Assembly: GCA_902773675.1 (NCBI GenBank)
Contig: CACYFN010000002.1
Span: 1,453-65,452 of the forward strand
DNA from: an uncultured Erysipelotrichaceae bacterium
Lineage (GTDB): Bacteria > Bacillota_I > Bacilli_A > RF39 > UBA660
Direction: 5' to 3'
DNA: 64,000 bases
This document shows positions 8,059 through 60,031 of the stretch, piece after piece. The position numbers were made by a program, and so were the translations under genes. A model generated the notes under the pieces. That model worked only from the letters and a program-made list of their open reading frames with translations. It searched no databases and was not told the origin of the DNA. Within the stretch, counting starts at the first letter, position 1, and the number at the start of each line of letters is the position of its first letter.

Positions 8059-8773
8059 TTTTTACCTCTTTACTAAGTAATATTTTTTCTAATTCTTTGC
8101 ATCTTTTTTTATCCATTGCTTCTACGCCATTTAATTTATATTTTATATTTAATTTTTGATATTTTGATACACCTATCAAACTATATGGAAGTAGTTGTAC
8201 TTTTTCTACATTTTTTATATTTTTTATATAATCTTTTAATTTATAAATATATTCTTCGGTATCATTAATTCCTGGTACAATTACTTGTCTTAACCATAAT
8301 TTTTTATTTAATTCTTGTACTTTTTTTAGGAAATATTCAAATTTATCCATATTTTTAGTAGTTATTTTCTTATAATTTTCATTATCTATTGCTTTTATAT
8401 CTAAAAGAATTAAATCGGTATATTTTAATATTTCATCTAGTAAATTTTTATCATAGCCATTACCGGCCGTATCTATACAAGTGTGAATACCAGCTTTTTT
8501 ACATAGTTTTAGTACTTCAAGTAAGAATTCGGATTGTAGAAGTGGTTCTCCTCCTGAAATGGTTATTCCACCACCCATTTCAATATAACTTCGATATTTT
8601 CTTACTACATCTACGATATCTTTAGCACTTGTCTCTAGGTTATTACCTGGTATCCAAGTATCAGGATTATGACAGAAGCAGCATCTTAGGGGACATCCTT
8701 GAAAAAATACTACAACACGAATACCAGGGCCATCAAGTAGGCCCATGGTTTCGATTGAGTGGATATATCCCAT
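7118..8773 (-). CDS. pflA-fmt: in-frame fusion of pyruvate formate-lyase activating enzyme (radical SAM) and methionyl-tRNA formyltransferase
   Basis: The N-terminal 245 aa are a complete PflA (CPLRCCFCHNPDTW, GGGITISGGEP). They run without a stop codon into a complete Fmt (FMGTPLFSVP, QPDKPVGRG, HASLLPKLRGGAPI). Confidence 0.7.
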   Translation of the reverse strand: MGYIHSIETMGLLDGPGIRVVVFFQGCPLRCCFCHNPDTWIPGNNLETSAKDIVDVVRKYRSYIEMGGGITISGGEPLLQSEFLLEVLKLCKKAGIHTCIDTAGNGYDKNLLDEILKYTDLILLDIKAIDNENYKKITTKNMDKFEYFLKKVQELNKKLWLRQVIVPGINDTEEYIYKLKDYIKNIKNVEKVQLLPYSLIGVSKYQKLNIKYKLNGVEAMDKKRCKELEKILLSKEVKMNKDIKIVFMGTPLFSVPILDGLIKNYNVIGVVTQPDKPVGRGGKISISPIKELALKHNIKVLQPTKIREDYQEILDLNPNIIITAAYGQIIPKILLEYPKYGCINVHASLLPKLRGGAPIHHAIIDGYDKTGITIMYMDESMDTGDIISKEEVVIEDTDTMSSLHDKLKIVGKELLLKTLPDIINNKIKRIKQESTEATYAYNITKEEEKIDFNKTKIEIYNQIRGLNNHPGAYAMLDDKRIKIWNSYISDKEINNLQNGEISNIYKDGIGIKVSDGEIVLTDIQLEGKKRMLASDYLNGIDKNSLKGKILK

Positions 8774-10992
8774 TATAATGCCTCGTGGAATGTTCTAGAT
8801 ATTACTTCTTCTTGTTGTTTACGTGTTAGATTATTAAAGTTAACTGCATATCCGGAAATTCTAATTGTTAAATTAGGATATTTATTACGATTATTCATTG
8901 CATCTACTAACATTTGACGATCTAAAACGTTAACGTTTAGGTGATGTCCTCCTTGTTTAAAATATCCATCTAAGATGTGTACTAAATTACTTATTCTATC
9001 TTCTTCTGAACCAAGTGCATCTGGTATGATTGAGAATGTATTTGATATACCATCTAAACATAATGTATATGGTATTTTAGCAACTGATGATAATGATGCA
9101 ATGGCTCCACTTTTGTCGTTTCCTTGTGTTGGATTTGCTCCTGGGGCGAATGGTACTCCTTTTGCTCTTCCATCAGGTGTAGCTCCGGTATTATTTCCAT
9201 ACATTACATTAGAAGTTATTGTTAATAATGATATAGTTGGTTCTGCATTACGATATAGTGGATATTTTTTTAGTTCTTTTGAAAATTTGGTGATTATTTC
9301 TACTGCTAATTTATCTACCCTGTCATCATTATTTCCATATTTAGGGAAATCTTTTTCAGCATCAAATAATGAAGTTATTCCACGTTCGTCTCTTTTAACA
9401 CGTACTTGACCATATTTAATTGCGGATAATGAATCAGCAACAACACTAATTCCAGCTATACCAAAGGCCATTACTCTATTTGGAATAGTATCATGAAGAG
9501 CCATTTGACTACTTTCATAAGCATATTTATCATGCATGTAGTGAATTATATTTAACGCATCAACATATGTTTTAGTTAACTTTTTTATAACTTTTTCATA
9601 GACATGCATAAATTCATCATAATCAATGTAATCTCCTTCGATTTGCTCAATTCCATCTATTACGACATCACCACTTATTTCATCTCGACCGCCATTTAAA
9701 GCATAAAGAAGTGCTTTAGCTAGATTAATACGGGCTCCAAAGAATTGCATTTGTTTACCTTCTACCATAGCTGATACGCAACAGCTAATTGCATAATCAC
9801 TACCATATATTGGACGCATTACATCATCATTCTCATATTGAATTGTATGTGTTATGATTGACATTTCACTGCAATATTTTTTGAAGCTTTCAGGTAATTT
9901 GTTACTCCATAATATTGTCATATTTGGTTCTGCTGATGTACCTATATTATTTAATGTGTTAATAATTCTAAATGATGATTTGGTAACTAATGATCTAGAA
10001 TCATCAAGCATTCCACCAATTGATTCTGTTACCCAAGTAGGATCTCCAGCAAATAATTCATTATATTCTGGTGTTCTTAGGTGTCTAACTAGTCTTAATT
10101 TTATTACATATTGATCAATTAATTCTTGAGCTTCTTCTTCAGTAATTAGACCTTTTTCTAAGTCTCTTTCAATATATATATCTATAAATGTAGTATTTCT
10201 TCCGATACTAGTTGCTGCTCCATTATTTTGTTTGATTGCTGCTAGATATCCAAAGTATAACCACTGAATTGCTTCTTTAGCGTTTGAAGCTGGTTTTGAA
10301 ATATCATATCCATAACGAGATGCCATTTTTACTGTTTCTTTTAGGGCTTTTATTTGTTCTGCTACTTCTTCACGAAGTCTAATGGTTGACATATTAAGTG
10401 GATCTATTAATTTATCTAGATCTTCTTGTTTCTTTGCTATTAGAAAGTCAACTCCATATAGGGCAATTCTTCTATAATCACCTATTAGACGTCCACGACC
10501 ATATGCATCAGGAAGTCCTGTTATTAAATGATTAGTTCTGGCTTTTCTGATATCTTTTGTATAGGCATCAAATACTCCATCGTTATGTGTTTTACGATAT
10601 TCTGTAAATTTCATTTCTATGTCTTTATTTAATACATAACCATAGGCTTCTAAGGATTTTTTTACCATTCTCATACCGCCATATGGATTTACAATTCTTT
10701 TTAGTGGCTCATCTGTTTGAAGTCCTACTATTACTTCATTTTTTCTATCAATGTATCCTGGTTCAAAATTATCAATTCCAGCTATGATATCTGTTTCTAC
10801 ATCAAGTACTCCACTGATTGCTTCTTTTTTTATTAATGATTCACATTTTTTCCATACTTTTTGAGTTTTGCTTGATACTCCTTTTAAGAATGTACTATCT
10901 CCTCTGTATTCTTTATAATTGGCAGCAATAAATCCTGCGACATCGATATTTTTTTGCCAATTTCCATTTTTAAATCCATTCCATTCGTTCAT
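8773..10992 (-). CDS. pflB: formate C-acetyltransferase (pyruvate formate-lyase)
   Basis: 739 aa with the glycyl-radical motif RISGYAV near the C-terminus. Its stop and the pflA start overlap as TAATG. Confidence 0.9.
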
Positions 10993-41997: not shown

Positions 41998-42738
41998 TTA
42001 TTTATTTTCATTTTTTCTTTTTTTAATAAAGATTATTAATATGCATGCTACTGTACATACTCCAATTGAAGCAATTACTACTGGTACATAGTTATAATCA
42101 AGTCCAGTAATTGGAGCTGGAATTATTTCGATTACTTCTTTTTCTGGTGTTGGCTCTGGAGTTGGAACAGGTTCTGGTGTTGGCTCTGGTTCAGGTTCTG
42201 GTTCAGGCTCTGGCTCTGGTGGAACTTGTTTATCAAATTCAGCTATAAATGCCCAATTTAGATATGAATAATCATTAAATTCTTTATTACTATATTGTTC
42301 TGATAGTTTTAATTCAACTGTTATTTTGGCTTGTTCATTATTAGCCATTTCTTTAAGTAATACGGAATTTTGTAAGTTGATACCGTCTAAATTATAATCA
42401 AGTCCTTTTACTTTACCATTATAAATCATTGAGTCATTTAGATATACTTTCATGTATATATTATCTAATAATTCTTCTGCTTGAGTATTTTGATCTGTCT
42501 CTTTTACTTTTAGATAAATAGTTAATGGGAAACCTGCTGCATTTTCTATTATTAATTCATCTGTATATGTTCCTCCTGGTACCATATCGGTATGATACAT
42601 AAATTTAGTACTATCAAATAAAGATGTATCATAGTAAATTTTATTATCACTTTCAGTTAAATATAATTTATTATCGAGTGCAAATACGGGAATTGCAAAT
42701 GCAAATAATAGAATTAATCCAAATATAATTTTTTTCAT
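41998..42738 (-). CDS. secreted protein with a (PE)n/(TPEP) linker and a C-terminal sorting-signal-like anchor
   Basis: Signal peptide, PEPEPEPEPEPEPTPEPVPTPEPTPE, then IPAPITG, a hydrophobic helix and KKRKNENK. Confidence 0.5.
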   Translation of the reverse strand: MKKIIFGLILLFAFAIPVFALDNKLYLTESDNKIYYDTSLFDSTKFMYHTDMVPGGTYTDELIIENAAGFPLTIYLKVKETDQNTQAEELLDNIYMKVYLNDSMIYNGKVKGLDYNLDGINLQNSVLLKEMANNEQAKITVELKLSEQYSNKEFNDYSYLNWAFIAEFDKQVPPEPEPEPEPEPEPTPEPVPTPEPTPEKEVIEIIPAPITGLDYNYVPVVIASIGVCTVACILIIFIKKRKNENK

Positions 42739-42808
42739 TGTTACCTCCACTACTATATTTTTATTTTAATATATTTTACAATTTTATTCAATAGTTTTGA
42801 TATTTTTT

Positions 42809-45158: not shown

Positions 45159-46421
45159 TTATGAGTCTTTTTTGTTTCTTTTTGAATAATAAAAGGTATA
45201 TCCTATTATTAATCCACCTAATATAATAATTATTATACTTACTATTATTATTGTCCAAGATAGATAGTTTAATGTATTTGCTACTGTAACATTTTCTTCT
45301 TTAGTATCTGTTTTATCTGCATCTTCATTATTAATTATTTCTTCTTCATTATCAATTATTTCATCACTATTTTCTTTACCAGGAAATAATGAATAACTAT
45401 TATCTACAGTTCCATCACCATAATATATATTTACATTAGATTTTAAATATACTACTGGTCGAATAATAAATGTATTTGTTACTTTTCCATTATTAAAGAA
45501 TCCTGTTCCATCAATAGCTACAGCATGATTTGCATGTCTTGCAAATGGAGAAATTAGCCATGTATTATGTGTTTCAGAACCAGTTTCTGCTATTATACTA
45601 TTATAAATCCAACTTGTTGTTACATCTTCATTTTCAATTCTACATCCATTTGGATTATTATAACAAGATTCGTTAACTCCTTTTCCATATACCAAATATC
45701 CATCACTAGGATACATTAATCCAACATTTCCAGTAGATGATGTTGAAAAATTATTTGAATGATAATTAGTTGTACCACGTTCCCAATTATATAAATCTTC
45801 AGCATTTTGATTAGCTAAATTATCGTTTGCACTTCCTCCTAGATAGAATACTACATTATCTATCATATTTCTAGCTGATTCTTTTAATCCATAGTTTATA
45901 GCATCTCCTGTTTGATTATAATAATCTCCATTTAAGAATGTATTTAAACTTGAATTTTCCCAATCATTTTTACTATTACTATCTTCACTATTATTCCAAG
46001 CCATTTTACTTTCTAAGCCATTGTCTTTAACTATTTTTATTCTTTCTTCAATATTTCCAGTTCCATCATCAATACTGAATATACCTAGTATTCTCCAAGT
46101 TTCACAGTTAGTTCCATCGCTATCACAATTAAATTTAATGTAATTATTTGGATTACTACCTATATATCTATAGTCAGTTTGAGCAGGTGTTTGGATTGTT
46201 GCGTCATGATTAAATGTGTACATTTCTCCTTTATTACCTGTTTCATATGTTGTTATACTTTCATCATTCATTTTTGATTTTATTAATTCTATGGCATTTT
46301 GTGCTTCATTGCCATTATTATATAATTTATTTTTTAGACTGATTCTTGTTGGTGCTTCTTTTGATATTAATGTTATTACTAAAATTAAAATGGAACATAT
46401 TATTAATACTTTTTTCTTCAT
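45159..46421 (-). CDS. surface protein with an N-terminal signal/anchor and a C-terminal TM anchor
   Basis: Ends in a ...FIIRPVVYLKSNV module that is shared with the proteins at 52343 and 54263. Confidence 0.5.
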   Translation of the reverse strand: MKKKVLIICSILILVITLISKEAPTRISLKNKLYNNGNEAQNAIELIKSKMNDESITTYETGNKGEMYTFNHDATIQTPAQTDYRYIGSNPNNYIKFNCDSDGTNCETWRILGIFSIDDGTGNIEERIKIVKDNGLESKMAWNNSEDSNSKNDWENSSLNTFLNGDYYNQTGDAINYGLKESARNMIDNVVFYLGGSANDNLANQNAEDLYNWERGTTNYHSNNFSTSSTGNVGLMYPSDGYLVYGKGVNESCYNNPNGCRIENEDVTTSWIYNSIIAETGSETHNTWLISPFARHANHAVAIDGTGFFNNGKVTNTFIIRPVVYLKSNVNIYYGDGTVDNSYSLFPGKENSDEIIDNEEEIINNEDADKTDTKEENVTVANTLNYLSWTIIIVSIIIIILGGLIIGYTFYYSKRNKKDS

Positions 46422-50937: not shown

Positions 50938-52305
50938 GTGGTAGAAATGAGTAATAAAAGAAAAAAAATGATAATGATTGTAATAATACTTTCGGTATTT
51001 TGTTTTATGTATATTTTAAATAGTAAAACAATGATAGTATCAGATGATTTTCCATATCATTTTGTTTTTTCCAGAGAGCCTAATGCAAATACTAAGTTTA
51101 TTACTAATCCAATTGAAATATTTGGATCTATGGGTACACATTGGATTACTTGGGGTGGACGAGTTTCGGTACATTTTTTACTGCAATTGTCTTTTATGTT
51201 AGGTATTAATTTTTTTAATATTGTTAATTCTATTATGTTTGTACTTTTAGGTATACTTATTTATAAACATATAAATAACACAAAGGAAATTAAATTATCA
51301 TGGTTAGTTACTATTTATGCGGTTATATTTTTATTTGTTCCACAACCAGCTTCTACTATTATGTGGAAAAGTGGTAGTGCGAATTATTTATGGTCTTCTG
51401 TTTTAATTTTATGTATGACTTTAATATTTAAAAAACATTTTGATAATAAGAAATGTATTAAAGATAATTATTTAAATATGTTTTTATTATTTCCTTTTGG
51501 ATTAATAATTGGATGTTCTAATGAAAATACTGGTTGTGCATTAATTTTAGCTGAAATATTATTTATTATTGCTTATAAGGTTAATTATAAAAAGATTCCT
51601 AAGTGGGCAATTAGTGCATTAATTGGTACTATTTTTGGATATATTTTCTTGGTATCTTCTCCTGGTAATTATAAGAGAACTGATATAATGTATCCTAATG
51701 TTCAATATGGAATATCTAATATATTTGATTATATTTTAAAAATTACAAGACTTACTTATAGTTATTTAAAGGAAATTATTATTAGTGTTATTGTTACGAG
51801 TATTATTATTTATAAGGAGAAATATGATTTAAAAAAAGCTATTAGTAATCATACTATTCAGATAATATTTTTAATTCTTGCTTTAGCTAGTATATATTCA
51901 TTAATTATTTCTCCTGCTTACCCTGAGAGATGTTGGATGTTTTCATTTGTTTACTTTACTATTGTAATTGGTATTAATATTAGTAAGATGAAATTTAAAT
52001 CCGATACTATTAGTAGAATTATGATGACTTTAATGATAATATTATCTATTAAGGCTATAAGTGAATATTCAAGTGCATATTATTTTATAAGTGAGACTTA
52101 TGATGAAGTAAATGCTCAAATAGTTGAAATTAATAGACAAAAAGATAAAGGTATTAAAGATATTAAGATACATAGTATTTCGCAACCTGAAGGTAAATAT
52201 AATGCATTTAAGGATAATGGATATATAAATTCAGATCCAGAAAATTGGATTAATGTTTGGGCTGCAGAGTATTATGGTGTTGATACGATTGAAGCTATTG
52301 ATTAA
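50938..52305 (+). CDS. polytopic membrane protein, possibly a GT-C-type glycosyltransferase
   Basis: About 12 predicted TM helices with an early extracytoplasmic SDDFPYHF (D-D/E-like) loop. Confidence 0.4.
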   Translation: MVEMSNKRKKMIMIVIILSVFCFMYILNSKTMIVSDDFPYHFVFSREPNANTKFITNPIEIFGSMGTHWITWGGRVSVHFLLQLSFMLGINFFNIVNSIMFVLLGILIYKHINNTKEIKLSWLVTIYAVIFLFVPQPASTIMWKSGSANYLWSSVLILCMTLIFKKHFDNKKCIKDNYLNMFLLFPFGLIIGCSNENTGCALILAEILFIIAYKVNYKKIPKWAISALIGTIFGYIFLVSSPGNYKRTDIMYPNVQYGISNIFDYILKITRLTYSYLKEIIISVIVTSIIIYKEKYDLKKAISNHTIQIIFLILALASIYSLIISPAYPERCWMFSFVYFTIVIGINISKMKFKSDTISRIMMTLMIILSIKAISEYSSAYYFISETYDEVNAQIVEINRQKDKGIKDIKIHSISQPEGKYNAFKDNGYINSDPENWINVWAAEYYGVDTIEAID

Positions 52306-52342: not shown

Positions 52343-54241
52343 TTATTTCTTCTTCATTTTCTTAAATATTATTGCAGATAATATTACTTGAGCAAATATA
52401 AATAAATTTATTAATATTAATCCTATTAAAATATATTTAATTAATCCATCATCTAATCCATCTTCTCCATAGTCATTATAATAATTATTGATATTTCCAT
52501 TATTATCTATACTATTATTTTCTTTTTCTTCTTCAATTTCGTCTTTTGTTGTTTCTGGATTATTTGATTGCTCATTTGTAAGAGTCTTTTGTTTTTCATT
52601 GGATTCTTTTATTATATTATTGGTTGATTCTTCATCTAATTTTTCTACATTATCTAATTTTAATGTAATTACTGGTCTTATGCCAGCTGTAAATGATAAT
52701 TCTCCTACTCCATTATATCCTGATAGGAAAAAATTATTTCCATTATTTTGACCTGGTGCGATATAAAGAGATACCCAGTTCTTTTCTATTTCAGCATTAT
52801 CGAGATTATAGAACATTATTCCTACATTGAAATATCCATTACCATTATATGGTGATGATGTATCTTCTACAGATTTTTTATTAAATTGCCTTTTGGAATT
52901 AATCCAATATTTAGCATTTACTTTATCATTTATTTTATTTAGATTAGCTAAATCAGAATATACAACTGCTCTAGCATTTATTACTTTATCTCCATTTTTA
53001 TAATTATCTACTTCTTTTTGAAGAATATCTTCATAATTTTCATAATCATCTTTTCCTCTAAGGTAAAGATTTTTTACTATTCCACCACTAATTATATCTA
53101 CTGTATTATTTGCTTTATCTATTGATAATACACGCCAATTTTTATATTCTTGTGCACTATAATTTACATAGTCTCCTACACTTAAATCAGTATTTGCTTC
53201 TTTTTTGTTAGTTTCTTGTGGTGTTAGTTTAAGGGTAACTACTGGCCTAAATCCTTTTGTTACTGGTTGGTATTGACTATATGTTTCAGAATAGCAACAC
53301 TCTAAATAGTTTCTTTCTACTACATACTTTTCAATTTCATAGTATCTTGATTTATATCCTTCTCCAGAACTATCTCCAAACCATCCTCTTAATATTTTAT
53401 ATGGGTTACTTTTGGATGCATAATAATTTTTTATTTTAGTAATATAATTTATTCTATCATTTCCATATCTTTGAAGAACATGTCCAGTTTCCCAAACATT
53501 ACTGTCTGACTGACGATAATCATTAAAAATTGCATCAATATATCCATATGGATCATTTAACATTTGCTCATTACCTAATACATCTATTGCAATTGGGTCT
53601 TTAGGCATTAACCATAAAGAATCTCCCCATACTTCTATTATAAACCATTCACTAATACCACCAATATCTTTGGTATATATATCTCCTTGTTCATAACCAG
53701 ATGTGTTATCTAAATGATATTGTATATATGGTAAAAAATATAGATCATTTGAAAAATCAGATGGATCTACATATTCAATTTTTCCTGCTGAATATGCAAT
53801 ACTCTTATCATATTTGTCTGCTGTCCAAAATTCTTTACCAAATGCAAAATTCTCCAAATCAGAACGATTTACGCTTCTTGCTTTAATAGCATATTTCCCA
53901 TCAACATATTTATCTGCTTCAGTTTGAAATATATCTAATGCATTATCAAAATCATCTTTATCTGATATAGTTATTTCGGATACATTATCTTTACTTACAA
54001 CGTCTATTGTTCCATTTACTTTATCTATATAGATAACTTTCCAATCTGAATATCCATTTATTTCATATTTTATTGAATCACCAATTTTAATTTTTTTTAT
54101 ATTTGTATTTAAATCATTTATGTTGTAGACACTACCCATTAATCTATTAGGATTTACTGATATTCCAACTAATACAATTATTAATATAACCATAAAAATA
54201 CTTGTAATTAGTACTTTTATTGCATTACTTTTTTTATTCAT
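52343..54241 (-). CDS. large two-anchor surface protein with two tandem ~200-aa repeats
   Basis: Each repeat runs from ...GDSIKYEINGYSDWKVIYIDKVNGTIDVVSK... to ...GFRPVVTLKL. It is a paralog of the 54263 and 45159 proteins. Confidence 0.5.
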   Translation of the reverse strand: MNKKSNAIKVLITSIFMVILIIVLVGISVNPNRLMGSVYNINDLNTNIKKIKIGDSIKYEINGYSDWKVIYIDKVNGTIDVVSKDNVSEITISDKDDFDNALDIFQTEADKYVDGKYAIKARSVNRSDLENFAFGKEFWTADKYDKSIAYSAGKIEYVDPSDFSNDLYFLPYIQYHLDNTSGYEQGDIYTKDIGGISEWFIIEVWGDSLWLMPKDPIAIDVLGNEQMLNDPYGYIDAIFNDYRQSDSNVWETGHVLQRYGNDRINYITKIKNYYASKSNPYKILRGWFGDSSGEGYKSRYYEIEKYVVERNYLECCYSETYSQYQPVTKGFRPVVTLKLTPQETNKKEANTDLSVGDYVNYSAQEYKNWRVLSIDKANNTVDIISGGIVKNLYLRGKDDYENYEDILQKEVDNYKNGDKVINARAVVYSDLANLNKINDKVNAKYWINSKRQFNKKSVEDTSSPYNGNGYFNVGIMFYNLDNAEIEKNWVSLYIAPGQNNGNNFFLSGYNGVGELSFTAGIRPVITLKLDNVEKLDEESTNNIIKESNEKQKTLTNEQSNNPETTKDEIEEEKENNSIDNNGNINNYYNDYGEDGLDDGLIKYILIGLILINLFIFAQVILSAIIFKKMKKK

Positions 54242-54262
54242 TCTTAAACCTCCTTCTAATAA

Positions 54263-56263
54263 TTACTTTTTCTTTTTATTTTTTATATTTTTAATAATAA
54301 GTACAGAAAATATTGTTTGAATTAGTAACGCTATATTTAATATTACTATAGTAATTATTATATATTTTACTATTTTATTATTATTATTTTTCTTTTTATG
54401 GTTATTATAATAATTATTTACTTCATTATTATCTTTAGTATCTATTTTATTATCTTCTGTATTTTTATCATCTTTAGTTATATCATTTTTTGTATTATTT
54501 TTTTCATTATTCTTTTTAGTATCATCTGTTATATATTTAGTACTATTATTCTTTTGTTCTTTTGTAATATTATTATTATTTTTATTTGATGATTCAATAG
54601 CATTTTGTGTTTCTTCTTCATTTAATTTTTTAACATTATCTAGTTTTAATGATATTACTGGTCTAATTCCAGCTGTAAATGATAAATCTCCAAATCCATT
54701 GTAACCTGTTAACATAGAACTTGATCCACTTGTTAGGCTTGTTGAAACATATAATGAAACCCATTTTCTTTCTACTGAATTTGTGTCATAGTCAAAATAT
54801 AAAATTGCGGCATCATAGAATCCATTAGTAGCATAAGGAGATGATGTTTCATCTACTGCTTTTTTGTTATATTGTTTTTTTTCTAATGACCAATATTTTA
54901 CATTTACATCATCATTAATTTTATTTAATTTTTTAATATCACTATATTCAGTTATTCTGGCACTTATAGCATTATCACCATTTTTATATTCATCTACTTC
55001 TTTTTGTAAAATATCTTCATAGTTTTCAAAATCATCTAATCCATAAAGGCTTATATTTTTAACTATTCCACCACTAATTATATCGACTGTTTCATTTTCT
55101 TCATCTATTGATAATACTTTCCAGTTATAATATTCTTTAGCACTATAGTTTACATTATCTCCAACTTGTAAATCTGTTCCAATACTTTTACCATCTGCAA
55201 TTTTTGAACTATATTTTAGAGTAACAATTGGTCTAAAGCCTTTGGTAATTGGTTTTTCTGTTATATATGATTCATTTTCACAACATTCATCACTATTTTG
55301 GTCAAGGTGAATTGTTGCAACAGATCCTGTTATTTCGTCATAAGTATAATTTTGATGTAATTCAAAGTATCCTGTAAAAGTTTTTAGATCATTTCCTTCT
55401 TGAATAAAGTAATTATTTATATTTTGATTGTCTCTTATAACCCAGAATCCATATTTATCTTGAAGGTTACCTACTTCTACTACTTTATTATTGGAATTTT
55501 GTAATCTTTCTAGATATTCTGCAATATATTTTGTTGGATTATTTCTAAATTGTTCATTTTTTTCAAATGACAATTTAATTGGTTCTTTTGATATTAGTGC
55601 TAATTTATCATATGAAGGAGCATTGATAACAAACCAATCTGTAACTCCATCAATATCTATTGTATAGTCTGATCCATAAGCATACGAATAGGCATTTTCT
55701 ATATCATTTATGATGACATATGGGATGTAATAGTATTCATGGGGTTTATTTTCAAATTCTGTATATTTAACTGCTCCGGTTGTAAATGCTACTGCTCCAT
55801 CATAAATATCAGCATTCCAGAATTCTTCATCAAATGCAAAGTTATCTAAATCAGCTCTTGATACACTACGTGCTTTTATTGCATATTTTTCATCTACATA
55901 TTTATTGGCTGTTTCTTGAAATTTATTTAGGGCATTGTCATAATCATCTTTAGTTAGTAAGGTTATATCTTCAACATTGGTTTTACTAACAACATCAATT
56001 GTATTACTATTTCTATCAATGTATACTACTTGCCAATCAGAATATCCATTTATTTCATAATTAATAGTATCTCCTACTTTTAATATATTATTATTACTTT
56101 CTAATTCTGTTGCTTTATAAGTACTACCTAAAAGTTTATCTGGTTTAAGCTTTGTTCCTAGCAATATAACAAATACAAAGATTAAACTTAATCCTATTAT
56201 TAAAACATATTTTTTAGGTGTTTTTATATTATTAGATTTTTTAACATTTTTTTTATTATTCAT
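54263..56263 (-). CDS. large two-anchor surface protein, paralog of the 52343 protein
   Basis: Same repeat architecture: ...GDTINYEINGYSDWQVVYIDRNSNTIDVVSK... ending in GFRPIVTLKY and AGIRPVISLKLD. Confidence 0.5.
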   Translation of the reverse strand: MNNKKNVKKSNNIKTPKKYVLIIGLSLIFVFVILLGTKLKPDKLLGSTYKATELESNNNILKVGDTINYEINGYSDWQVVYIDRNSNTIDVVSKTNVEDITLLTKDDYDNALNKFQETANKYVDEKYAIKARSVSRADLDNFAFDEEFWNADIYDGAVAFTTGAVKYTEFENKPHEYYYIPYVIINDIENAYSYAYGSDYTIDIDGVTDWFVINAPSYDKLALISKEPIKLSFEKNEQFRNNPTKYIAEYLERLQNSNNKVVEVGNLQDKYGFWVIRDNQNINNYFIQEGNDLKTFTGYFELHQNYTYDEITGSVATIHLDQNSDECCENESYITEKPITKGFRPIVTLKYSSKIADGKSIGTDLQVGDNVNYSAKEYYNWKVLSIDEENETVDIISGGIVKNISLYGLDDFENYEDILQKEVDEYKNGDNAISARITEYSDIKKLNKINDDVNVKYWSLEKKQYNKKAVDETSSPYATNGFYDAAILYFDYDTNSVERKWVSLYVSTSLTSGSSSMLTGYNGFGDLSFTAGIRPVISLKLDNVKKLNEEETQNAIESSNKNNNNITKEQKNNSTKYITDDTKKNNEKNNTKNDITKDDKNTEDNKIDTKDNNEVNNYYNNHKKKNNNNKIVKYIIITIVILNIALLIQTIFSVLIIKNIKNKKKK

Positions 56264-56416
56264 TTCATCCCACTCCTATTTTAATAATTTTATATTTTAT
56301 TATAACATTATAATGAGTATTTATCAATGATTAATATTCTTTTGTTTTTATTTTTCGTTTATTTAAATAGATTTTTTATTCACTTATTAATAATATAATT
56401 CCCCAAAAAAAGAAGA

Positions 56417-57649
56417 TTATTTATCTTCTAGTTTTTTTTTCATGATGATTGCTATTGCTACTAAAACAACAACGCATCCACCAAGAATAGCAAATATTTT
56501 TACAATATCATCTAGTGTTTTTGGTGCTTCTGCTTCTTTTTTTTCTTCTTTTACTTCTTCTAATGTTTCTTCTTTTGCTTCTTCAATAGTTTTTTCTTTT
56601 AAACTTGCTCTTGCTGCTTTTAACTTTGTAACCATTTCATCTACATTTTCTTGAGTAGCATTAGTATTATTTTTTAATTCATTAGCTTCATCTAATAAAT
56701 CTTCAACATTTTTAAATGATTCATCAGTATATTTATCTTTTTCTAATGCATTAATTTCTTCTAATTGTTTTAATAATTCAGTTTTATCTGCTTGATTTTT
56801 TAAATTATTTTTTGCTGTATTAATACTATCTATTCCGTTTTTTATATCATCTATTGTGATTGTTGTACCTTCCAAAACTGTTTTTTGTGCTTCTATTACT
56901 TCTTTCAAACTATCTATTGAATCTTTTGTATAATTATTCGCATAATCCTCATATTTTCCTTCTTCTTCAGTAATTAAATTTGATAATAATGCAGTATTTA
57001 CTTCTAACGCATCAACAATGTCATCAGCTTCTCCAAATGTATAATCTACTTGAATATAGAATTTACCTGGAGTTGTTGTATCTTCATTAAGAGTAATTTC
57101 TGATGAAATAGCTGTTTCAATATTTTCAATTAATTCATCTAAATTGCTAAAAGAAGTTGATGTGTAATATTCTTTATTATTTTGATACTCTTTTAAAGTA
57201 CTTAGACGTGTTTGTAATTCAGTCTTGTCATAAAGATACCAATTTCCTATTCTCTTTGATCCACTATATCCTGTTATTTTGTATGCATAGTTTTTTTCAA
57301 TATATCCTAAATTAATTGTTTTATTAGAGTCTCCTCCATTTTCATTATGAAAAATTATCATATTATAATGATATTCATCAAAACTATCTGGGGCTGTAAA
57401 CATGTATATATTGTCTTCGCCAGGAACCTTAACTAATTCATCATTACTATCCCAGGCTTTATATGTTGCTCCATTTTTTTCCCAAATATGAATATAGATA
57501 TGATTCCAGTCTAATCCAGTTGCATCAAAATAGATAACATCTCCTTTTTTTATTGCTGAATGTTCTTTATCTGGCGTATATGTAGCTTTTACATTTGATA
57601 TACAAAGCATTGTAAGTATTATTGCTATAAACGCAAATATTTTTTTCAT
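56417..57649 (-). CDS. surface protein with an N-terminal beta-domain, a coiled-coil region and a C-terminal sorting-like anchor
   Basis: Signal peptide. The C-terminus reads EAPKTLDD, a hydrophobic helix, then KKKLEDK. Confidence 0.5.
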   Translation of the reverse strand: MKKIFAFIAIILTMLCISNVKATYTPDKEHSAIKKGDVIYFDATGLDWNHIYIHIWEKNGATYKAWDSNDELVKVPGEDNIYMFTAPDSFDEYHYNMIIFHNENGGDSNKTINLGYIEKNYAYKITGYSGSKRIGNWYLYDKTELQTRLSTLKEYQNNKEYYTSTSFSNLDELIENIETAISSEITLNEDTTTPGKFYIQVDYTFGEADDIVDALEVNTALLSNLITEEEGKYEDYANNYTKDSIDSLKEVIEAQKTVLEGTTITIDDIKNGIDSINTAKNNLKNQADKTELLKQLEEINALEKDKYTDESFKNVEDLLDEANELKNNTNATQENVDEMVTKLKAARASLKEKTIEEAKEETLEEVKEEKKEAEAPKTLDDIVKIFAILGGCVVVLVAIAIIMKKKLEDK

Positions 57650-57762
57650 TTTCTTCCTCCTATTATTATATGTAAATTATATAATAAATATTTTCTTTTG
57701 TCAATATTAGCATGAAATAAATTTCTTTTTTATATACTAAAAAATAGTACTAATTGCACTAT

Positions 57763-58287
57763 TTAATATTCTTCATCATTTATTATCTTTGCTTCTATAA
57801 TTATTTGTATATCATCTTTAATTTTATGGCATGTTATAAGTGTAATAGTATTATTATGATTTTCTATTTTAAAGGAATTCTTTTTTAATTCTTTTATGTT
57901 ATATATTTGATATGTATACTTGACATTATCTTTATATAAATAAATAATATCTTCATTCTTTAATTCATCTAATCTGTTAAAATAACATATACTGCAGTTA
58001 CCGGAATGACTTGCTAAAATTATATCATTATTTAGAAATCTTTGATAATCTATGATAGTAATATCTTCATCTACATTAGAATCTTTTTTTAACCCTCTTT
58101 TTAAATTTATTTTAGGTATTTCTAATATTGCTACAAAATCATTATTATCTTTATGTTCTAAATAGTTAGCTATAGAATTAATTTCTTGTTTTTGAATTTT
58201 ATAATTTTGATAATAATTATTACACTTTAAAGTTATGCCAATTATGATAAATAAACTACTTATTAAAATTATACTTTTTAGTTTCAT
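57763..58287 (-). CDS. small sortase-family transpeptidase
   Basis: ILASHSG (His) and TLITC (TLxTC Cys). No canonical Arg is obvious after the Cys. Confidence 0.55.
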   Translation of the reverse strand: MKLKSIILISSLFIIIGITLKCNNYYQNYKIQKQEINSIANYLEHKDNNDFVAILEIPKINLKRGLKKDSNVDEDITIIDYQRFLNNDIILASHSGNCSICYFNRLDELKNEDIIYLYKDNVKYTYQIYNIKELKKNSFKIENHNNTITLITCHKIKDDIQIIIEAKIINDEEY

Positions 58288-60031
58288 ATATACCTATAAA
58301 ACCTATTATAATAAAAATATTAGATAGTATTTTATTATAATTAATTTCATTTTTTAATGTATTTGGTATTTCATATTGTTCATTTATTACTTCAATATTA
58401 TTAAAATCATTATCTATATTTATATCAATATTATCTGTATTTAATAAATATCCATTAACTCCTTCTACTTCTTCTAAATAATATTCTCCATAATAAAGAT
58501 CAGATATATAGCCATAACCATTATTAATTGTTATTTCATCTATTAATTCATCAGCTTTATAATAGATATCTCCTGTAAGTGATACTATATCTTTTTTAGC
58601 AAATAATTTAAATTTTGCTCCATTTAATAGTAAATTATCACTACCTATTTTTTTGATTTCTAAATTACCTTTTTTTATTATTTCTTTATCTTTTAACTCA
58701 ATTATAGTTTCTTCTTTAATGTTTGAGGCATCTATTTCTATTGGACTACTTATTTCAAAGTTATCTTTTCCACTTATTTGTTTTAGAATATATTTACCAA
58801 ATGGTAAAAGTAATTCTATGGTACCTGATTCATCTGTTATATATGTATCTATTAAATTATTATATTCATCATAAAGTTCAAATGAGGCATCACTTTCTAA
58901 ATAGTAATTATCAGTTATTTCATTACCATATTTTTTTATGATTTTATATTTATTTTTGATTATATCTTCATATACTATTAGTTTTTGATGATTATTAGTT
59001 GAGGTTAGATTTACTTCATATTTGGTATCATCTAACATATATCCTTTACTGGGTTGTATTTCTTTTATGTAATAATTTCTTAATGGTAAATCAGAAATTA
59101 CTCCATATCCATTATTATCAAGTGATATTTCTTGAATTAATTTATTATCTTCATCATATAATCCATATACCGCTCCTTCTAGGGTAGCTGGCGCTTGACT
59201 AGTAATATTTTCTCTATCTTGTTTATTAATTTCTATTGTTCCATCTTTAAATGTTATAGTTATTGACTTTGTTACATCATCATACTTACCTGGATAAAAC
59301 ATGTTTTGTCTTACATTGTTATTATATAATATATAATCTCTAGTTTCAGAAGATTTTTTTATAAAACGAATTGTATATGTACCTGGATTATCACTGGATA
59401 TTGTTAATGTATTACCAACTTTATTTATGTTAATATTACCATTATAATCAATATCATATAAGTCAAGTACATTGTTATTATCTACTAATGTATATTGTTC
59501 TTTAATACTATAATTGTTTTCTATGTTAAAATTTGGAGTAATGTAATGATTATTTACAAGACTATTTAATTCATTTAATTCTTCTTTATATTGAATAATT
59601 TTATTTCCATATAATGTATCGGTATAATAGATATCATCTAGTCCTAAAGTTTCCCAAATAAGATATTGAGTTATTCCATACCATTTTATATCGGTATGAT
59701 TATTATAACCATATCCATAATGAGCAAGTAAATTCATTCTATTTATTTGTTCTTTTGATAAACCGAATAATTCATTATATCCAATATATCCTTCATAATT
59801 TCCATTTATTTCATTAGTAAATGGATCTATGCAATATACATAATTATTATCACTTCTTAGTAGCATCCATGTTGATGTATTTCTTAAATTACCATTTTTT
59901 ATTTTTGTTACATAGGCATTTGGTACCATACTACCAAAGTGAAATGATTCTATTAAATCATAAGCTGATACTTTAGATATACTTATAATAAGTATAAAAA
60001 TAATAAATAAAATTTTTTTCATTTTTTTCAT
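58256..60031 (-). CDS. thioester-domain (TQXA) adhesin with CnaB/SpaA-type isopeptide domains
   Basis: YVYCIDPF followed by GITQYLIWE, with Cys...TQxxIW spacing typical of a thioester domain. It has three CnaB-like repeats, and its C-terminus reads IPNTL, a hydrophobic helix, then KKYNFNK. Confidence 0.6.
   Translation of the reverse strand: MKKMKKILFIIFILIISISKVSAYDLIESFHFGSMVPNAYVTKIKNGNLRNTSTWMLLRSDNNYVYCIDPFTNEINGNYEGYIGYNELFGLSKEQINRMNLLAHYGYGYNNHTDIKWYGITQYLIWETLGLDDIYYTDTLYGNKIIQYKEELNELNSLVNNHYITPNFNIENNYSIKEQYTLVDNNNVLDLYDIDYNGNININKVGNTLTISSDNPGTYTIRFIKKSSETRDYILYNNNVRQNMFYPGKYDDVTKSITITFKDGTIEINKQDRENITSQAPATLEGAVYGLYDEDNKLIQEISLDNNGYGVISDLPLRNYYIKEIQPSKGYMLDDTKYEVNLTSTNNHQKLIVYEDIIKNKYKIIKKYGNEITDNYYLESDASFELYDEYNNLIDTYITDESGTIELLLPFGKYILKQISGKDNFEISSPIEIDASNIKEETIIELKDKEIIKKGNLEIKKIGSDNLLLNGAKFKLFAKKDIVSLTGDIYYKADELIDEITINNGYGYISDLYYGEYYLEEVEGVNGYLLNTDNIDINIDNDFNNIEVINEQYEIPNTLKNEINYNKILSNIFIIIGFIGIYETKKYNFNK

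What the first reader, a model, noticed from the sequence alone, without database searches (positions are those of the whole stretch)
56417..60031. Atypical sortase and non-LPXTG sorting signals (xPxTL)
The 174-aa sortase has the His (ILASH) and TLxTC motifs, but no obvious catalytic Arg downstream of the Cys. The adjacent TED adhesin ends in EIPNTL, a spacer, a hydrophobic helix and KKYNFNK. The next protein ends in EAPKTL, a hydrophobic helix and KKKLEDK. The PE-repeat protein at 41998 ends in IPAPITG, a TM helix and KKRKNENK. No LPXTG motif occurs anywhere in the island, which suggests a sortase with P-x-T-[LG] specificity.
Basis: inference. Interest (0 to 1): 0.55.

Follow-up and report, generated by a model that had tools for sequence, protein, structure and literature searches.

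The report
Arginine-less sortase with PxT sorting signals
A small surface-anchoring enzyme (sortase) of an uncultured gut or rumen bacterium belongs to a large, apparently undescribed family that carries glutamine where textbook sortases have a catalytic arginine, and its partner proteins carry [V/I/A]-P-x-T tags with a free last position instead of LPXTG.

Summary
The 174-aa protein at 57763-58287(-) is a true sortase: Pfam 47.5 bits, and an AlphaFold2 model (pLDDT 90.7) whose best structural matches are solved sortases. It has His94 and TLITC-Cys153 but no Arg after the Cys. Gln161 sits at the start of strand β8, where Arg sits in B. anthracis SrtA and SrtD.

This is not a one-off mutation. 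Gln is kept in 118 of 120 homologues and in 144 of 147 representatives clustered at 50% identity, and no column has a conserved Arg. About 416 clusters match at E<=1e-30, nearly all from uncultured gut or rumen Bacilli.

In 67 of 88 distinct loci a SpaA or thioester-domain adhesin gene lies just upstream of the sortase gene, overlapping its start in 65. These adhesins end in xPxT-x, a hydrophobic helix and a basic tail. P5 is V in 55 and I in 8. P1' is G in 24, L in 22 and one of nine other residues in 21.

The window's adhesin (IPNTL), FIVAR protein (APKTL) and PE-repeat protein (APITG) keep P-x-T across orthologues while P1' drifts. No LPxT[GA] occurs in the window.

Best reading: an active, substrate-coupled sortase clade with a His-Cys-Gln site and [V/I/A]PxT↓x specificity. 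No biochemistry exists. It is a new variant of a known kind.

The parts
57763..58287 (-). Sortase gene. It encodes 174 aa: an N-terminal TM helix and a minimal catalytic domain of about 125 aa.
   Evidence: Pfam PF04203 scores 47.5 bits against a cut-off of 26.6. The AF2 model has pLDDT 90.7 and Foldseek's top hits are solved sortases. The identical protein occurs on 16-18 metagenome contigs.
58006..58008 (-). Codon of the catalytic His94 (ILASHSG).
   Evidence: It aligns with His120 of S. aureus SrtA. It is invariant in 147 of 147 representatives.
57829..57831 (-). Codon of the catalytic Cys153 (TLITC). The preceding Thr152 is also conserved.
   Evidence: Cys is present in 147 of 147 representatives and Thr152 in 143 of 147. 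It aligns with the TLITC of S. aureus SrtA.
57805..57807 (-). Codon CAA of Gln161, at the position of the canonical catalytic Arg (start of β8).
   Evidence: Alignments to 2kw8, 5dv0 and 2ln7 place it opposite the Arg. The AF2 secondary structure agrees. Gln is present in 118 of 120 homologues and 144 of 147 representatives. Codons are 67 CAA and 6 CAG across family members, and Arg (CGA) is one transition away.
58256..60031 (-). Thioester-domain (TED) adhesin with three SpaA domains, 591 aa. It is the presumed primary substrate. Its last 32 nt overlap the sortase start.
   Evidence: Pfam TED scores 25.8 bits and SpaA 113 bits. The thioester Cys (YCIDPF, residue 67) and Gln (TQYLIW, residue 122) are conserved in orthologues. 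The adhesin-then-sortase order is conserved in 67 of 88 loci.
58259..58369 (-). Sorting signal of the adhesin: IPNTL, the spacer KNEINYNK, a hydrophobic stretch and the tail ETKKYNFNK.
   Evidence: Orthologues carry IPNTL, IPNTG or IPSTG.
56417..57649 (-). FIVAR/CBM26-like surface protein of 410 aa. It is a second presumed substrate.
   Evidence: It has weak Pfam hits to FIVAR and CBM26. The gene is conserved next to the sortase in L005, L007, L008 and L009.
56420..56527 (-). Sorting signal of the FIVAR protein: APKTL-DD, a TM helix and the tail KKKLEDK.
   Evidence: Orthologues carry APKTL, VPKTL or APQTI, set in otherwise variable E/K-rich linkers.
41998..42750 (-). PE-repeat surface protein of 250 aa. 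It is a third presumed substrate. Its signal spans 42001-42117 (APITG, a TM helix, KKRKNENK).
   Evidence: Almost all of about 30 homologues at 36-85% identity keep xPxT, with P1' G, V, N, K or M.
45159..46421 (-). DUF6273 protein ending VANTL, a TM helix and SKRNKKDS. It is a possible fourth substrate carrying a Pro-less variant of the motif.
   Evidence: The same Pro-less variants (IANTL, VADTL) are found in sortase-adjacent adhesins of L018 and L034. Conservation in orthologues could not be tested.
57676..57704 (-). Perfect sigma-70-type promoter match (TTGACA-17-TATAAT) between the sortase gene and the FIVAR gene.
   Evidence: This is a consensus match only. It suggests that adhesin and sortase form one transcription unit and that the FIVAR gene has its own promoter.

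Best explanation
The locus encodes an active, membrane-anchored cysteine transpeptidase of the sortase superfamily. It belongs to a distinct clade, with at least about 400 clusters at 50% identity, almost all from uncultured gut or rumen Bacilli.

In this clade the canonical His-Cys-Arg triad is His94-Cys153-Gln161, and Thr152 is retained. The gene is translationally coupled to its main substrate, a thioester-domain/SpaA adhesin.

Inferred mechanism:
- Substrates are exported by their N-terminal signal peptides.
- They are held in the membrane by the C-terminal hydrophobic segment and basic tail.
- The enzyme recognises [V/I/A]-P-x-T and cleaves after Thr, whatever the P1' residue.
- The thioacyl intermediate is resolved by an amine of a peptidoglycan precursor, which anchors the protein to the wall.
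- The Gln amide takes over the hydrogen bonds that Arg normally gives to the P4/P3 backbone carbonyls.
- Thr152 and backbone amides form the oxyanion hole.

In this genome the same enzyme probably also handles the FIVAR protein (APKTL), the PE-repeat protein (APITG) and perhaps the DUF6273 protein (VANTL).

Shown: the fold, the residue identities, family-wide conservation, gene coupling and motif conservation. Inferred: activity, cleavage site, acceptor and the role of Gln.
For: Fold and family
- Pfam Sortase hit.
- The AF2 model has pLDDT 90.7. Foldseek gives probability 1.00 to B. anthracis SrtA, L. monocytogenes SrtA, T. fusca SrtE and C. perfringens SrtC.

Gln at the Arg position
-.

Strong purifying selection, which argues for activity
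- H94, G96 and C153 are each 147 of 147. Q161 is 144 of 147, K136 is 145 of 147 and T152 is 143 of 147.
- Gln is encoded by both CAA and CAG, although Arg is one transition away.

Family size
- 416 representatives at E<=1e-30.
- 439 loci in GTDB species genomes.

Enzyme-substrate coupling
- In 67 of 88 distinct loci the upstream same-strand gene ends in xPxT-x, a TM helix and a basic tail.
- In 65 of the 67 it overlaps the sortase start, by 3-84 nt.

Motif conservation
- The motif is conserved against variable linkers in three unrelated substrate families.

P1' tolerance
- P1' varies within one genome: L and G in the window, G and L in L005, G and I in L009. This points to tolerance rather than co-evolution.

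Contrast with the nearest annotated relatives
- Class D sortases on Clostridium plasmids, in the same adhesin-then-sortase arrangement, have Arg (..KQRLIL.., ..GQRRIV..).
- The C. baratii adhesin ends in LPQTGG.

Availability of an acceptor
- The window encodes Ddl and a MurF-like ligase.

Mechanistic plausibility
- In S. pyogenes SrtA the Arg bonds the P4/P3 carbonyls, not the P1 oxyanion.
- The Thr before the Cys forms the oxyanion hole.
- An evolved S. aureus SrtA with Arg-to-Ser is still an efficient transpeptidase with altered specificity (PMC9520033).
- Class F sortases of Actinobacteria are reported to have Asn in place of Arg (PMC6998099).
Against: - There is no biochemical or proteomic evidence for cleavage or anchoring by any member of the family.
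- Arg-to-Ala mutants of canonical sortases are inactive (PMC9520033), so loss of Arg could mean loss of function.
- Only 64 kb of the genome is seen. A canonical sortase elsewhere could process some or all of these signals.
- The model's coordinates could not be inspected, so the orientation of Gln161 toward the active site is inferred from topology only.
- The adhesin's hydrophobic segment is short (about 15 residues) and is separated from the motif by a charged 8-residue spacer.
- The acceptor nucleophile is unknown.
Confidence: 0.65

Rival explanations
1. The protein is a catalytically dead pseudo-sortase. It would act as a chaperone or scaffold, and the C-terminal segments would be simple membrane tail-anchors whose PxT is incidental.
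For: The catalytic Arg is absent, and R-to-A mutants of class A sortases are inactive (PMC9520033). Two neighbouring proteins (52343-54241 and 54263-56263) have C-terminal TM helices and KKK tails without any PxT motif, so tail-anchoring as such exists in this organism.
Against: His, Cys, the Thr before the Cys and Gln are near-invariant over at least 147 clusters at 50% identity. That pattern is typical of an active site and not of a decayed one. PxT is conserved at a fixed distance from the helix in three unrelated protein families and in 67 of 88 adjacent adhesins. Arg-less sortase variants can be active (PMC9520033).
Confidence: 0.1
2. It is a class C-like pilin polymerase that joins adhesin subunits, or adhesin plus other pilins, into a pilus rather than anchoring them to the wall.
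For: The best NCBIfam partial hit is class C (46 bits). The best PDB profile hits include C. perfringens SrtC. The substrate has SpaA domains and a weak SpaH/EbpB major-pilin match. [I/V]PxTG signals are typical of pilins, for example VPDTG of RrgC.
Against: - The class C score is far below its cut-off (46 against 160).
- There is no lid segment and no C-terminal TM helix. Only about 7 residues lie between the N-terminal helix and β1.
- The only YPxK-like motif in the adhesin (FYPGKY) has K or R in orthologues, so it is not an invariant pilin-motif lysine.
- Each locus has a single adjacent substrate. No major-pilin or base-pilin set is present.
- The other presumed substrates (the FIVAR and PE-repeat proteins) are not pilins.
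Confidence: 0.08
3. The enzyme is active but acts only on its cognate adhesin, or it resolves the acyl-enzyme differently, by hydrolytic release or by attachment to a non-peptidoglycan acceptor. The other xPxT proteins in the window would then be handled by another, unseen sortase.
For: Only the adhesin is gene-coupled to the sortase throughout the family. The FIVAR gene appears to have its own promoter. The PE-repeat gene is 15 kb away among housekeeping genes. Related lineages of Bacilli show reduced peptidoglycan gene sets (PMC10868615).
Against: No other sortase and no LPxT[GA] signal is present in the window. None was found in about 1 Mb of flanks of related loci, where P5 is never Leu. 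All presumed substrates share the same core motif. Ddl and MurF are present in the window.
Confidence: 0.15

Closest known systems
Class A housekeeping sortases (B. anthracis SrtA 2KW8, L. monocytogenes SrtA 5HU4, S. pyogenes SrtA)
   Same: These are the best structural matches (Foldseek E about 1e-9, rmsd 2.6-2.7 Å). They share the single N-terminal membrane anchor, His in a ..AxH.. motif, TLITC with the conserved Thr before the Cys, and a short β7-β8 loop.
   Different: The query has Gln instead of Arg at the start of β8. Its catalytic domain is smaller, about 125 aa. Its gene overlaps a substrate gene. Its signals are [V/I/A]PxT-x and not LPXTG. It scores 37.3 on TIGR01076, just below the 39.35 cut-off.
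Class D sortases of Clostridium conjugative plasmids (C. perfringens, C. baratii; B. anthracis SrtD 2LN7)
   Same: These are the nearest annotated relatives by tblastn, at 31-39% identity over 40-63% of the query. The C. baratii plasmid has the same cassette, with a SpaA adhesin gene directly upstream of the sortase. The β8 sequence is very similar: RYIIEAKL against QIIIEAKI. Both occur in spore-forming Bacillota.
   Different: They keep the Arg (..KQRLILKG....GQRRIVLKG..), and the C. baratii adhesin ends in LPQTGG. The query scores 24 on the NCBIfam class D model against a cut-off of 165.
Class C pilus-assembly sortases (C. perfringens SrtC 6IXZ/7D6P; S. pneumoniae SrtC)
   Same: These are the best profile-sequence hits in the PDB, at 63 bits. 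They are clustered with SpaA-domain substrates that carry [I/V/Y]PxTG-type signals.
   Different: The query has no lid, no C-terminal TM helix, no Arg, and no pilin set or invariant pilin lysine. It scores 46 on the NCBIfam class C model against a cut-off of 160.
Class F sortases of Actinobacteria with Asn in place of Arg (Malik & Kim 2019, as cited in PMC6998099)
   Same: This is a precedent for a natural sortase lineage in which the third triad residue is an amide (Asn or Gln) instead of Arg.
   Different: They come from a different phylum and sequence family, and no class F model matched at E<0.01. The substitution is Asn and not Gln. No VPxT signals or adhesin coupling are reported for them.
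Lactobacillus plantarum-type LPQTxE signals, class B NPQTN and class D LPNTA (from general knowledge of sortase signals, not tested here)
   Same: These are examples where P1' is not Gly or is variable.
   Different: They keep Leu or Asn at P5 and a canonical Arg-containing enzyme. Here P5 is Val, Ile or Ala, and P1' ranges over at least 11 residue types.

Membership tests
Sortase superfamily (PF04203) | Match to the family model above the curated cut-off | tested here: met
   47.5 bits against a cut-off of 26.6.
Sortase superfamily (PF04203) | Eight-stranded sortase β-barrel fold | tested here: met
   AF2 pLDDT 90.7 and pTM 0.80. Foldseek probability 1.00 to many solved sortases, with TM-score 0.68-0.76 normalised to the target.
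Sortase superfamily (PF04203) | Catalytic His and Cys (TLxTC) | tested here: met
   His94 and Cys153 are invariant in 147 of 147 representatives. They align with His120 and Cys184 of S. aureus SrtA.
Sortase superfamily (PF04203) | Conserved catalytic Arg at the start of β8 | tested here: not met
   Gln161 occupies this position. Arg is present there in 0 of 120 homologues and 0 of 147 representatives. No other column has a conserved Arg; the maximum is 60%, at a loop position that the window protein lacks.
Class A sortase | Match to the NCBIfam sortase model TIGR01076 (not specific to class A); LPXTG substrates; gene not linked to its substrates | tested here: not met
   37.3 bits against a cut-off of 39.35. 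There is no LPxT[GA] in the window. The gene overlaps its substrate gene.
Class B sortase | Match to class B models; NP(Q/K)T(N/G) signal | tested here: not met
   No class B model is listed at E<0.01. Signals here are [V/I/A]PxT-x.
Class C sortase | NF033745 score of 160 or more; a lid over the active site; a C-terminal TM helix; pilin substrates with a pilin-motif Lys | tested here: not met
   46.3 bits. There is no segment for a lid and no C-terminal helix. YPG[K/R]Y is not invariant.
Class D sortase | NF033746 or NF058671 above cut-off; LPxTA or LPQTG signals | tested here: not met
   24.2 against 165, and 27.9 against 140. Plasmid class D relatives have Arg, and the C. baratii adhesin ends in LPQTGG, unlike this family.
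Class E / class GN sortases | Model score above cut-off | tested here: not met
   18.8 against 160, and 17.5 against 158.
Cell-wall sorting signal (tripartite) | Pentapeptide motif, then a hydrophobic segment, then a basic tail at the extreme C-terminus of a secreted protein | tested here: met
The motif is conserved in orthologues.
Cell-wall sorting signal (tripartite) | Actual cleavage after Thr and amide linkage to peptidoglycan | not testable with these tools
   This needs biochemistry or mass spectrometry.
Thioester-domain (TED) adhesin | TED model match plus conserved Cys and Gln that form the thioester | tested here: met
   PF08341 scores 25.8 against a cut-off of 22. YCIDPF (Cys67) and TQYLIW (Gln122) are invariant in five orthologues.

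The most novel reading that the evidence does not exclude
This may be the first recognised member of an undescribed sortase class with a His-Cys-Gln active site. Its features would be:
- at least about 400 clusters at 50% identity, almost all from uncultured gut or rumen Bacilli;
- natural operation without the 'invariant' Arg;
- recognition of [V/I/A]-P-x-T with no constraint on P1';
- translational coupling to a thioester adhesin.

It may be the surface-anchoring system of lineages scored as lacking srtA/srtB. It would be a natural test of whether the sortase Arg is a catalytic residue or a specificity residue. It could also serve as a new ligation enzyme with an orthogonal tag.
Probability: 0.4. 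Interest if true: 0.75.

Novelty: new variant of a known kind. Interest (0 to 1): 0.62.

Why it matters
His-Cys-Arg is treated as the universal sortase triad, but the role of the Arg is still debated: oxyanion stabiliser, or substrate-positioning and selectivity residue (PMC9520033). A large, strongly conserved natural family with Gln at that position, paired with a shifted P5 preference (Val/Ile/Ala instead of Leu) and a free P1', offers a direct test system for that question.

It also suggests that homology-based surveys reporting a lack of srtA/B sortases in some reduced-genome gut Bacilli (PMC10868615) may miss this clade. No curated class model reaches its cut-off for this protein. Those organisms may therefore display covalently anchored thioester adhesins after all.

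Practically, a 125-residue sortase domain that accepts xPxT followed by any residue could extend sortase-mediated ligation beyond LPXTG.

Tried and rejected
- Profile comparison of the family with S. aureus SrtA aligned His and Cys but stopped before the Arg, because the β7-β8 loop lengths differ. The Arg equivalence therefore rests on sortases with similar loop lengths (2kw8, 5dv0, 2ln7).
- A one-residue register shift, with Gln aligned to the residue before Arg as in the class D sequence KQRLIL, was considered and rejected. QIIIEAKI against RYIIEAKL matches without a shift, and a shift breaks the β8 hydrophobic pattern.
- A pilin motif in the adhesin was rejected because Lys and Arg alternate in YPG[K/R]Y.
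- The 'island' idea was rejected because housekeeping genes are interspersed.
- tblastn of the window's sortase against plasmids found nothing. A more typical family member, P0095, found only Arg-containing class C and class D sortases. Against phages it gave weak, unannotated hits.
- Cluster look-up gave no source names.
- The metagenome scan for relatives of the VANTL protein gave two distant loci. The one inspected has no C-terminal anchor, so conservation of that motif is untested.
- Literature searches for VPNTL, VPDTL, IPNTL, VPNTG and APKTL, and for Arg-less sortases, found nothing on this family.
- The AFDB Foldseek library was not available.
- Model coordinates are not exposed, so no distances around Gln161 or Lys136 could be measured.
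- The GTDB scan found no relative closer than 49% identity, so the window's species could be placed only as an uncultured Bacilli MAG lineage, through PheS.

Full report
**Setting.** The window is 22-30% G+C and almost all genes lie on the minus strand. It is chromosomal DNA of an uncultured member of the Bacilli.
- It carries PheS, PolA, LigA, ThrRS, TrpRS, Tgt, RecD2, FtsK, RbfA and RadC.
- It carries the spore genes Gpr, SpoIIIAH and GerM.
- It carries the peptidoglycan-precursor enzymes Ddl and a MurF-like ligase.
- The closest named PheS relatives, at 68-75% identity, are 'MAG: Bacilli bacterium'.
- The sortase locus occurs unchanged on 16-18 metagenome contigs. Some sample names point to rumen datasets.
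The PE-repeat gene is 15 kb away, among housekeeping genes.

**The observation.**
- The ORF at 57763-58287(-) encodes 174 aa with ILASHSG (His94) and TLITC (Cys153). The remaining 21 residues contain no Arg.
- It passes the Pfam Sortase model at 47.5 bits against 26.6. It reaches no curated NCBIfam class cut-off: class C 46 against 160, class D 24 against 165, class E 19 against 160, and the generic TIGR01076 37.3 against 39.35.
- HMMER alignments to solved sortases with similar loop lengths place Gln161 opposite the catalytic Arg. B. anthracis SrtD reads DRYIIEAKL against DIQIIIEAKI. In 5dv0, ERIIV aligns with IQIII. The family profile k-q-i-v-i aligns with K-R-Y-V-V of B. anthracis SrtA.
- An AlphaFold2 model (pLDDT 90.7) has an N-terminal helix at 3-43, β7 at 147-153 ending at the Cys, a six-residue loop, and β8 at 160-173. 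Gln161 therefore sits at the topological Arg position.
- Foldseek finds solved sortases of classes A, E, C and D with probability 1.00 and shows no preference for one class.
- No LPxT[GA] exists in any ORF of 60 aa or more in the window.

**It is a family trait and not a lesion.**
- Among the 120 best homologues, Gln is present in 118 and Arg in none.
- In 147 representatives clustered at 50% identity, His94, Gly96 and Cys153 are invariant. Gln161 is 144 of 147, Lys136 is 145 of 147 and Thr152 is 143 of 147.
- No column holds a conserved Arg.
- Gln is encoded by CAA 67 times and by CAG 6 times. Arg (CGA) is one transition away, so Gln is selected for and not merely tolerated (the last step is inference).
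- The exhaustive profile search gives 416 representatives at E<=1e-30.
- The GTDB species-genome scan gives 439 loci. The best 80 are nearly all MAGs labelled uncultured Bacilli, Tenericutes, Erysipelotrichaceae or 'Mycoplasma sp. CAG:877'.

**Substrate coupling and the sorting motif.**
- In close relatives at 50-100% identity (L001-L011), the TED/SpaA adhesin gene always ends 31-43 nt inside the sortase gene.
- Across 88 distinct sortases, 82 have an upstream same-strand ORF, and 67 of these end in xPxT-x, a hydrophobic helix and a basic tail. In 65 of the 67 the ORF overlaps the sortase start.
- P5 is Val in 55 and Ile in 8. P3 is Asn in 34 and Asp in 23.
- P1' is Gly 24, Leu 22, Phe 4, Asn 4, Ser 3, Ala 2, Asp 2, Tyr 2, Gln 2, Met 1 and Lys 1.
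- Orthologues of the window's adhesin read IPNTL, IPNTG or IPSTG. The FIVAR protein reads APKTL, VPKTL or APQTI within an otherwise variable E/K-rich linker.
- About 30 homologues of the PE-repeat protein, at 36-85% identity, almost all keep xPxT with P1' G, V, N, K or M.
- Single genomes mix P1' residues. This favours one tolerant enzyme over co-evolving enzyme-substrate pairs (inference).
- P.T occurs at only 0.0021 per position in the window's long ORFs.
- A few adhesins have Pro-less variants (IANTL, VADTL, VKDTG). The window's DUF6273 protein, ending VANTL with a TM helix and SKRNKKDS, may be a fourth substrate.
- The two large paralogues at 52343-56263 are tail-anchored without the motif and are probably not substrates.

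**The adhesin.**
- It has a signal peptide, a thioester domain with conserved Cys (YCIDPF) and Gln (TQYLIW), and three SpaA domains.
- The only pilin-motif-like element, FYPG[K/R]Y, is not an invariant Lys.
- The sortase has no lid and no C-terminal helix.
- Wall anchoring of a stand-alone adhesin is therefore more likely than pilus polymerisation.

**Comparison with the nearest annotated relatives.**
- tblastn of a typical family member against plasmids finds class D sortases of C. perfringens and C. baratii at 31-39% identity. In C. baratii a SpaA adhesin gene lies directly upstream, and both sit near type IV secretion genes.
- These enzymes retain Arg (KQRLILKG, GQRRIVLKG), and the C. baratii adhesin ends in LPQTGG.
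- The Gln clade thus differs from its closest characterised kin in both the triad residue and the signal.
- One family member (L014) also lies among conjugation genes.

**Mechanism (inferred).**
- Structures of S. pyogenes SrtA show the Arg hydrogen-bonding the P4 and P3 carbonyls. The Thr before the Cys, together with backbone amides, forms the oxyanion hole.
- An evolved S. aureus SrtA with Arg-to-Ser remains an efficient transpeptidase with changed specificity (PMC9520033).
- The β7-β8 loop modulates selectivity in class A sortases (PMC8361268).
- Class F sortases of Actinobacteria are reported to have Asn for Arg (PMC6998099).
- A His94/Thr152/Cys153 chemistry, with the Gln161 amide positioning a [V/I/A]-P backbone and a short loop leaving S1' open, is therefore plausible.
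- Ddl and MurF in the window indicate that a lipid II-type acceptor is available.

**Novelty.**
- No curated class model captures the family.
- The library held no paper with the motif strings or with an Arg-less Firmicute sortase.
- A survey of reduced-genome Bacilli reports a lack of srtA/B in orders RFN20 and ML615J-28 (PMC10868615). Whether those orders carry this clade was not established here.
- I rate it a new variant of a known kind.
- The main uncertainty is the total absence of biochemical evidence, together with the unseen remainder of the genome.

Noticed in passing
window:7118-8773 (-), next to 8773-10992 (-): A single 551-aa ORF fuses a pyruvate formate-lyase activating enzyme (TIGR02493, 293 bits, residues 3-232) to methionyl-tRNA formyltransferase (TIGR00460, 327 bits, residues 244-542). 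It lies directly downstream of a PFL-like glycyl-radical enzyme. This is an unusual fusion linking formate production and formyl transfer.
   Followed up: no
window:60046-62825 (-); L005, L007, L009, L010: Four genes for small secreted proteins lie upstream of the adhesin. In three of them the signal-peptide h-region is followed by x[T/S]Y[A/S]KY, which resembles SipW/TasA-type signals. Orthologous loci carry a second copy of the cluster that includes an S26 signal peptidase, fused to one of these proteins in L010. No S26 gene was seen in the window, and no Pfam or NCBIfam family matches the three smaller proteins.
   Followed up: partly
window:29274-30371 (-): A BsaA-family SipW-dependent biofilm matrix protein (TIGR04090, 112 bits against a cut-off of 60). 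It supports the presence of a SipW-type secretion and matrix system in this organism.
   Followed up: no
window:52343-54241 (-) and 54263-56263 (-): Two paralogous proteins of 632 and 666 aa have both N-terminal and C-terminal TM helices and K-rich tails, no family assignment and no PxT motif. In L001-L005 and L007 they lie downstream of the FIVAR gene and beside a DUF6056/GT_STM0557_N membrane protein (window: 50938-52305, +).
   Followed up: partly
window:45159-46421 (-): A DUF6273 protein ends TVANTL, a TM helix and SKRNKKDS. This is a Pro-less look-alike of the sorting signal, like the IANTL and VADTL adhesins of L018 and L034. Conservation could not be tested.
   Followed up: partly
L014:5543-16489; L096; L097: In L014 the adhesin-sortase cassette sits among conjugative-element genes: TraC/TraG-like ATPases, a resolvase, SSB and an M23 peptidase. 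On Clostridium plasmids, Arg-containing class D sortases lie beside VirD4-like or T4SS genes, with a SpaA adhesin gene directly upstream in C. baratii. The cassette may be a mobile mating or adhesion module.
   Followed up: partly
window:57676-57704 (-) and 56299-56327 (-): A 12/12 sigma-70 consensus promoter match lies in the 113-nt gap between the sortase and FIVAR genes. An 11/12 match with an extended TG lies upstream of the 666-aa gene. These are consensus matches only, in AT-rich DNA.
   Followed up: no
window:16483-18567 (-): A C39-peptidase-domain ABC exporter (bacteriocin or double-glycine leader type) with small ORFs nearby. The cargo was not sought.
   Followed up: no
Sortase residue Lys136 (window 57880-57882, -): A family-specific Lys just after β6 is conserved in 145 of 147 representatives and has no counterpart in canonical sortases, where it aligns to Pro or Asp in 2kw8 and class C enzymes. 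It may supply the positive charge lost with the Arg. This could not be tested without model coordinates.
   Followed up: partly
L038 (JAUNSN010000005.1): This is the one relative in the locus set with Arg after the Cys (TLITCKKGNNRYRLIIVG). Its upstream gene lacks a PxT, TM helix and basic tail signal. It may mark the boundary of the Gln clade.
   Followed up: no
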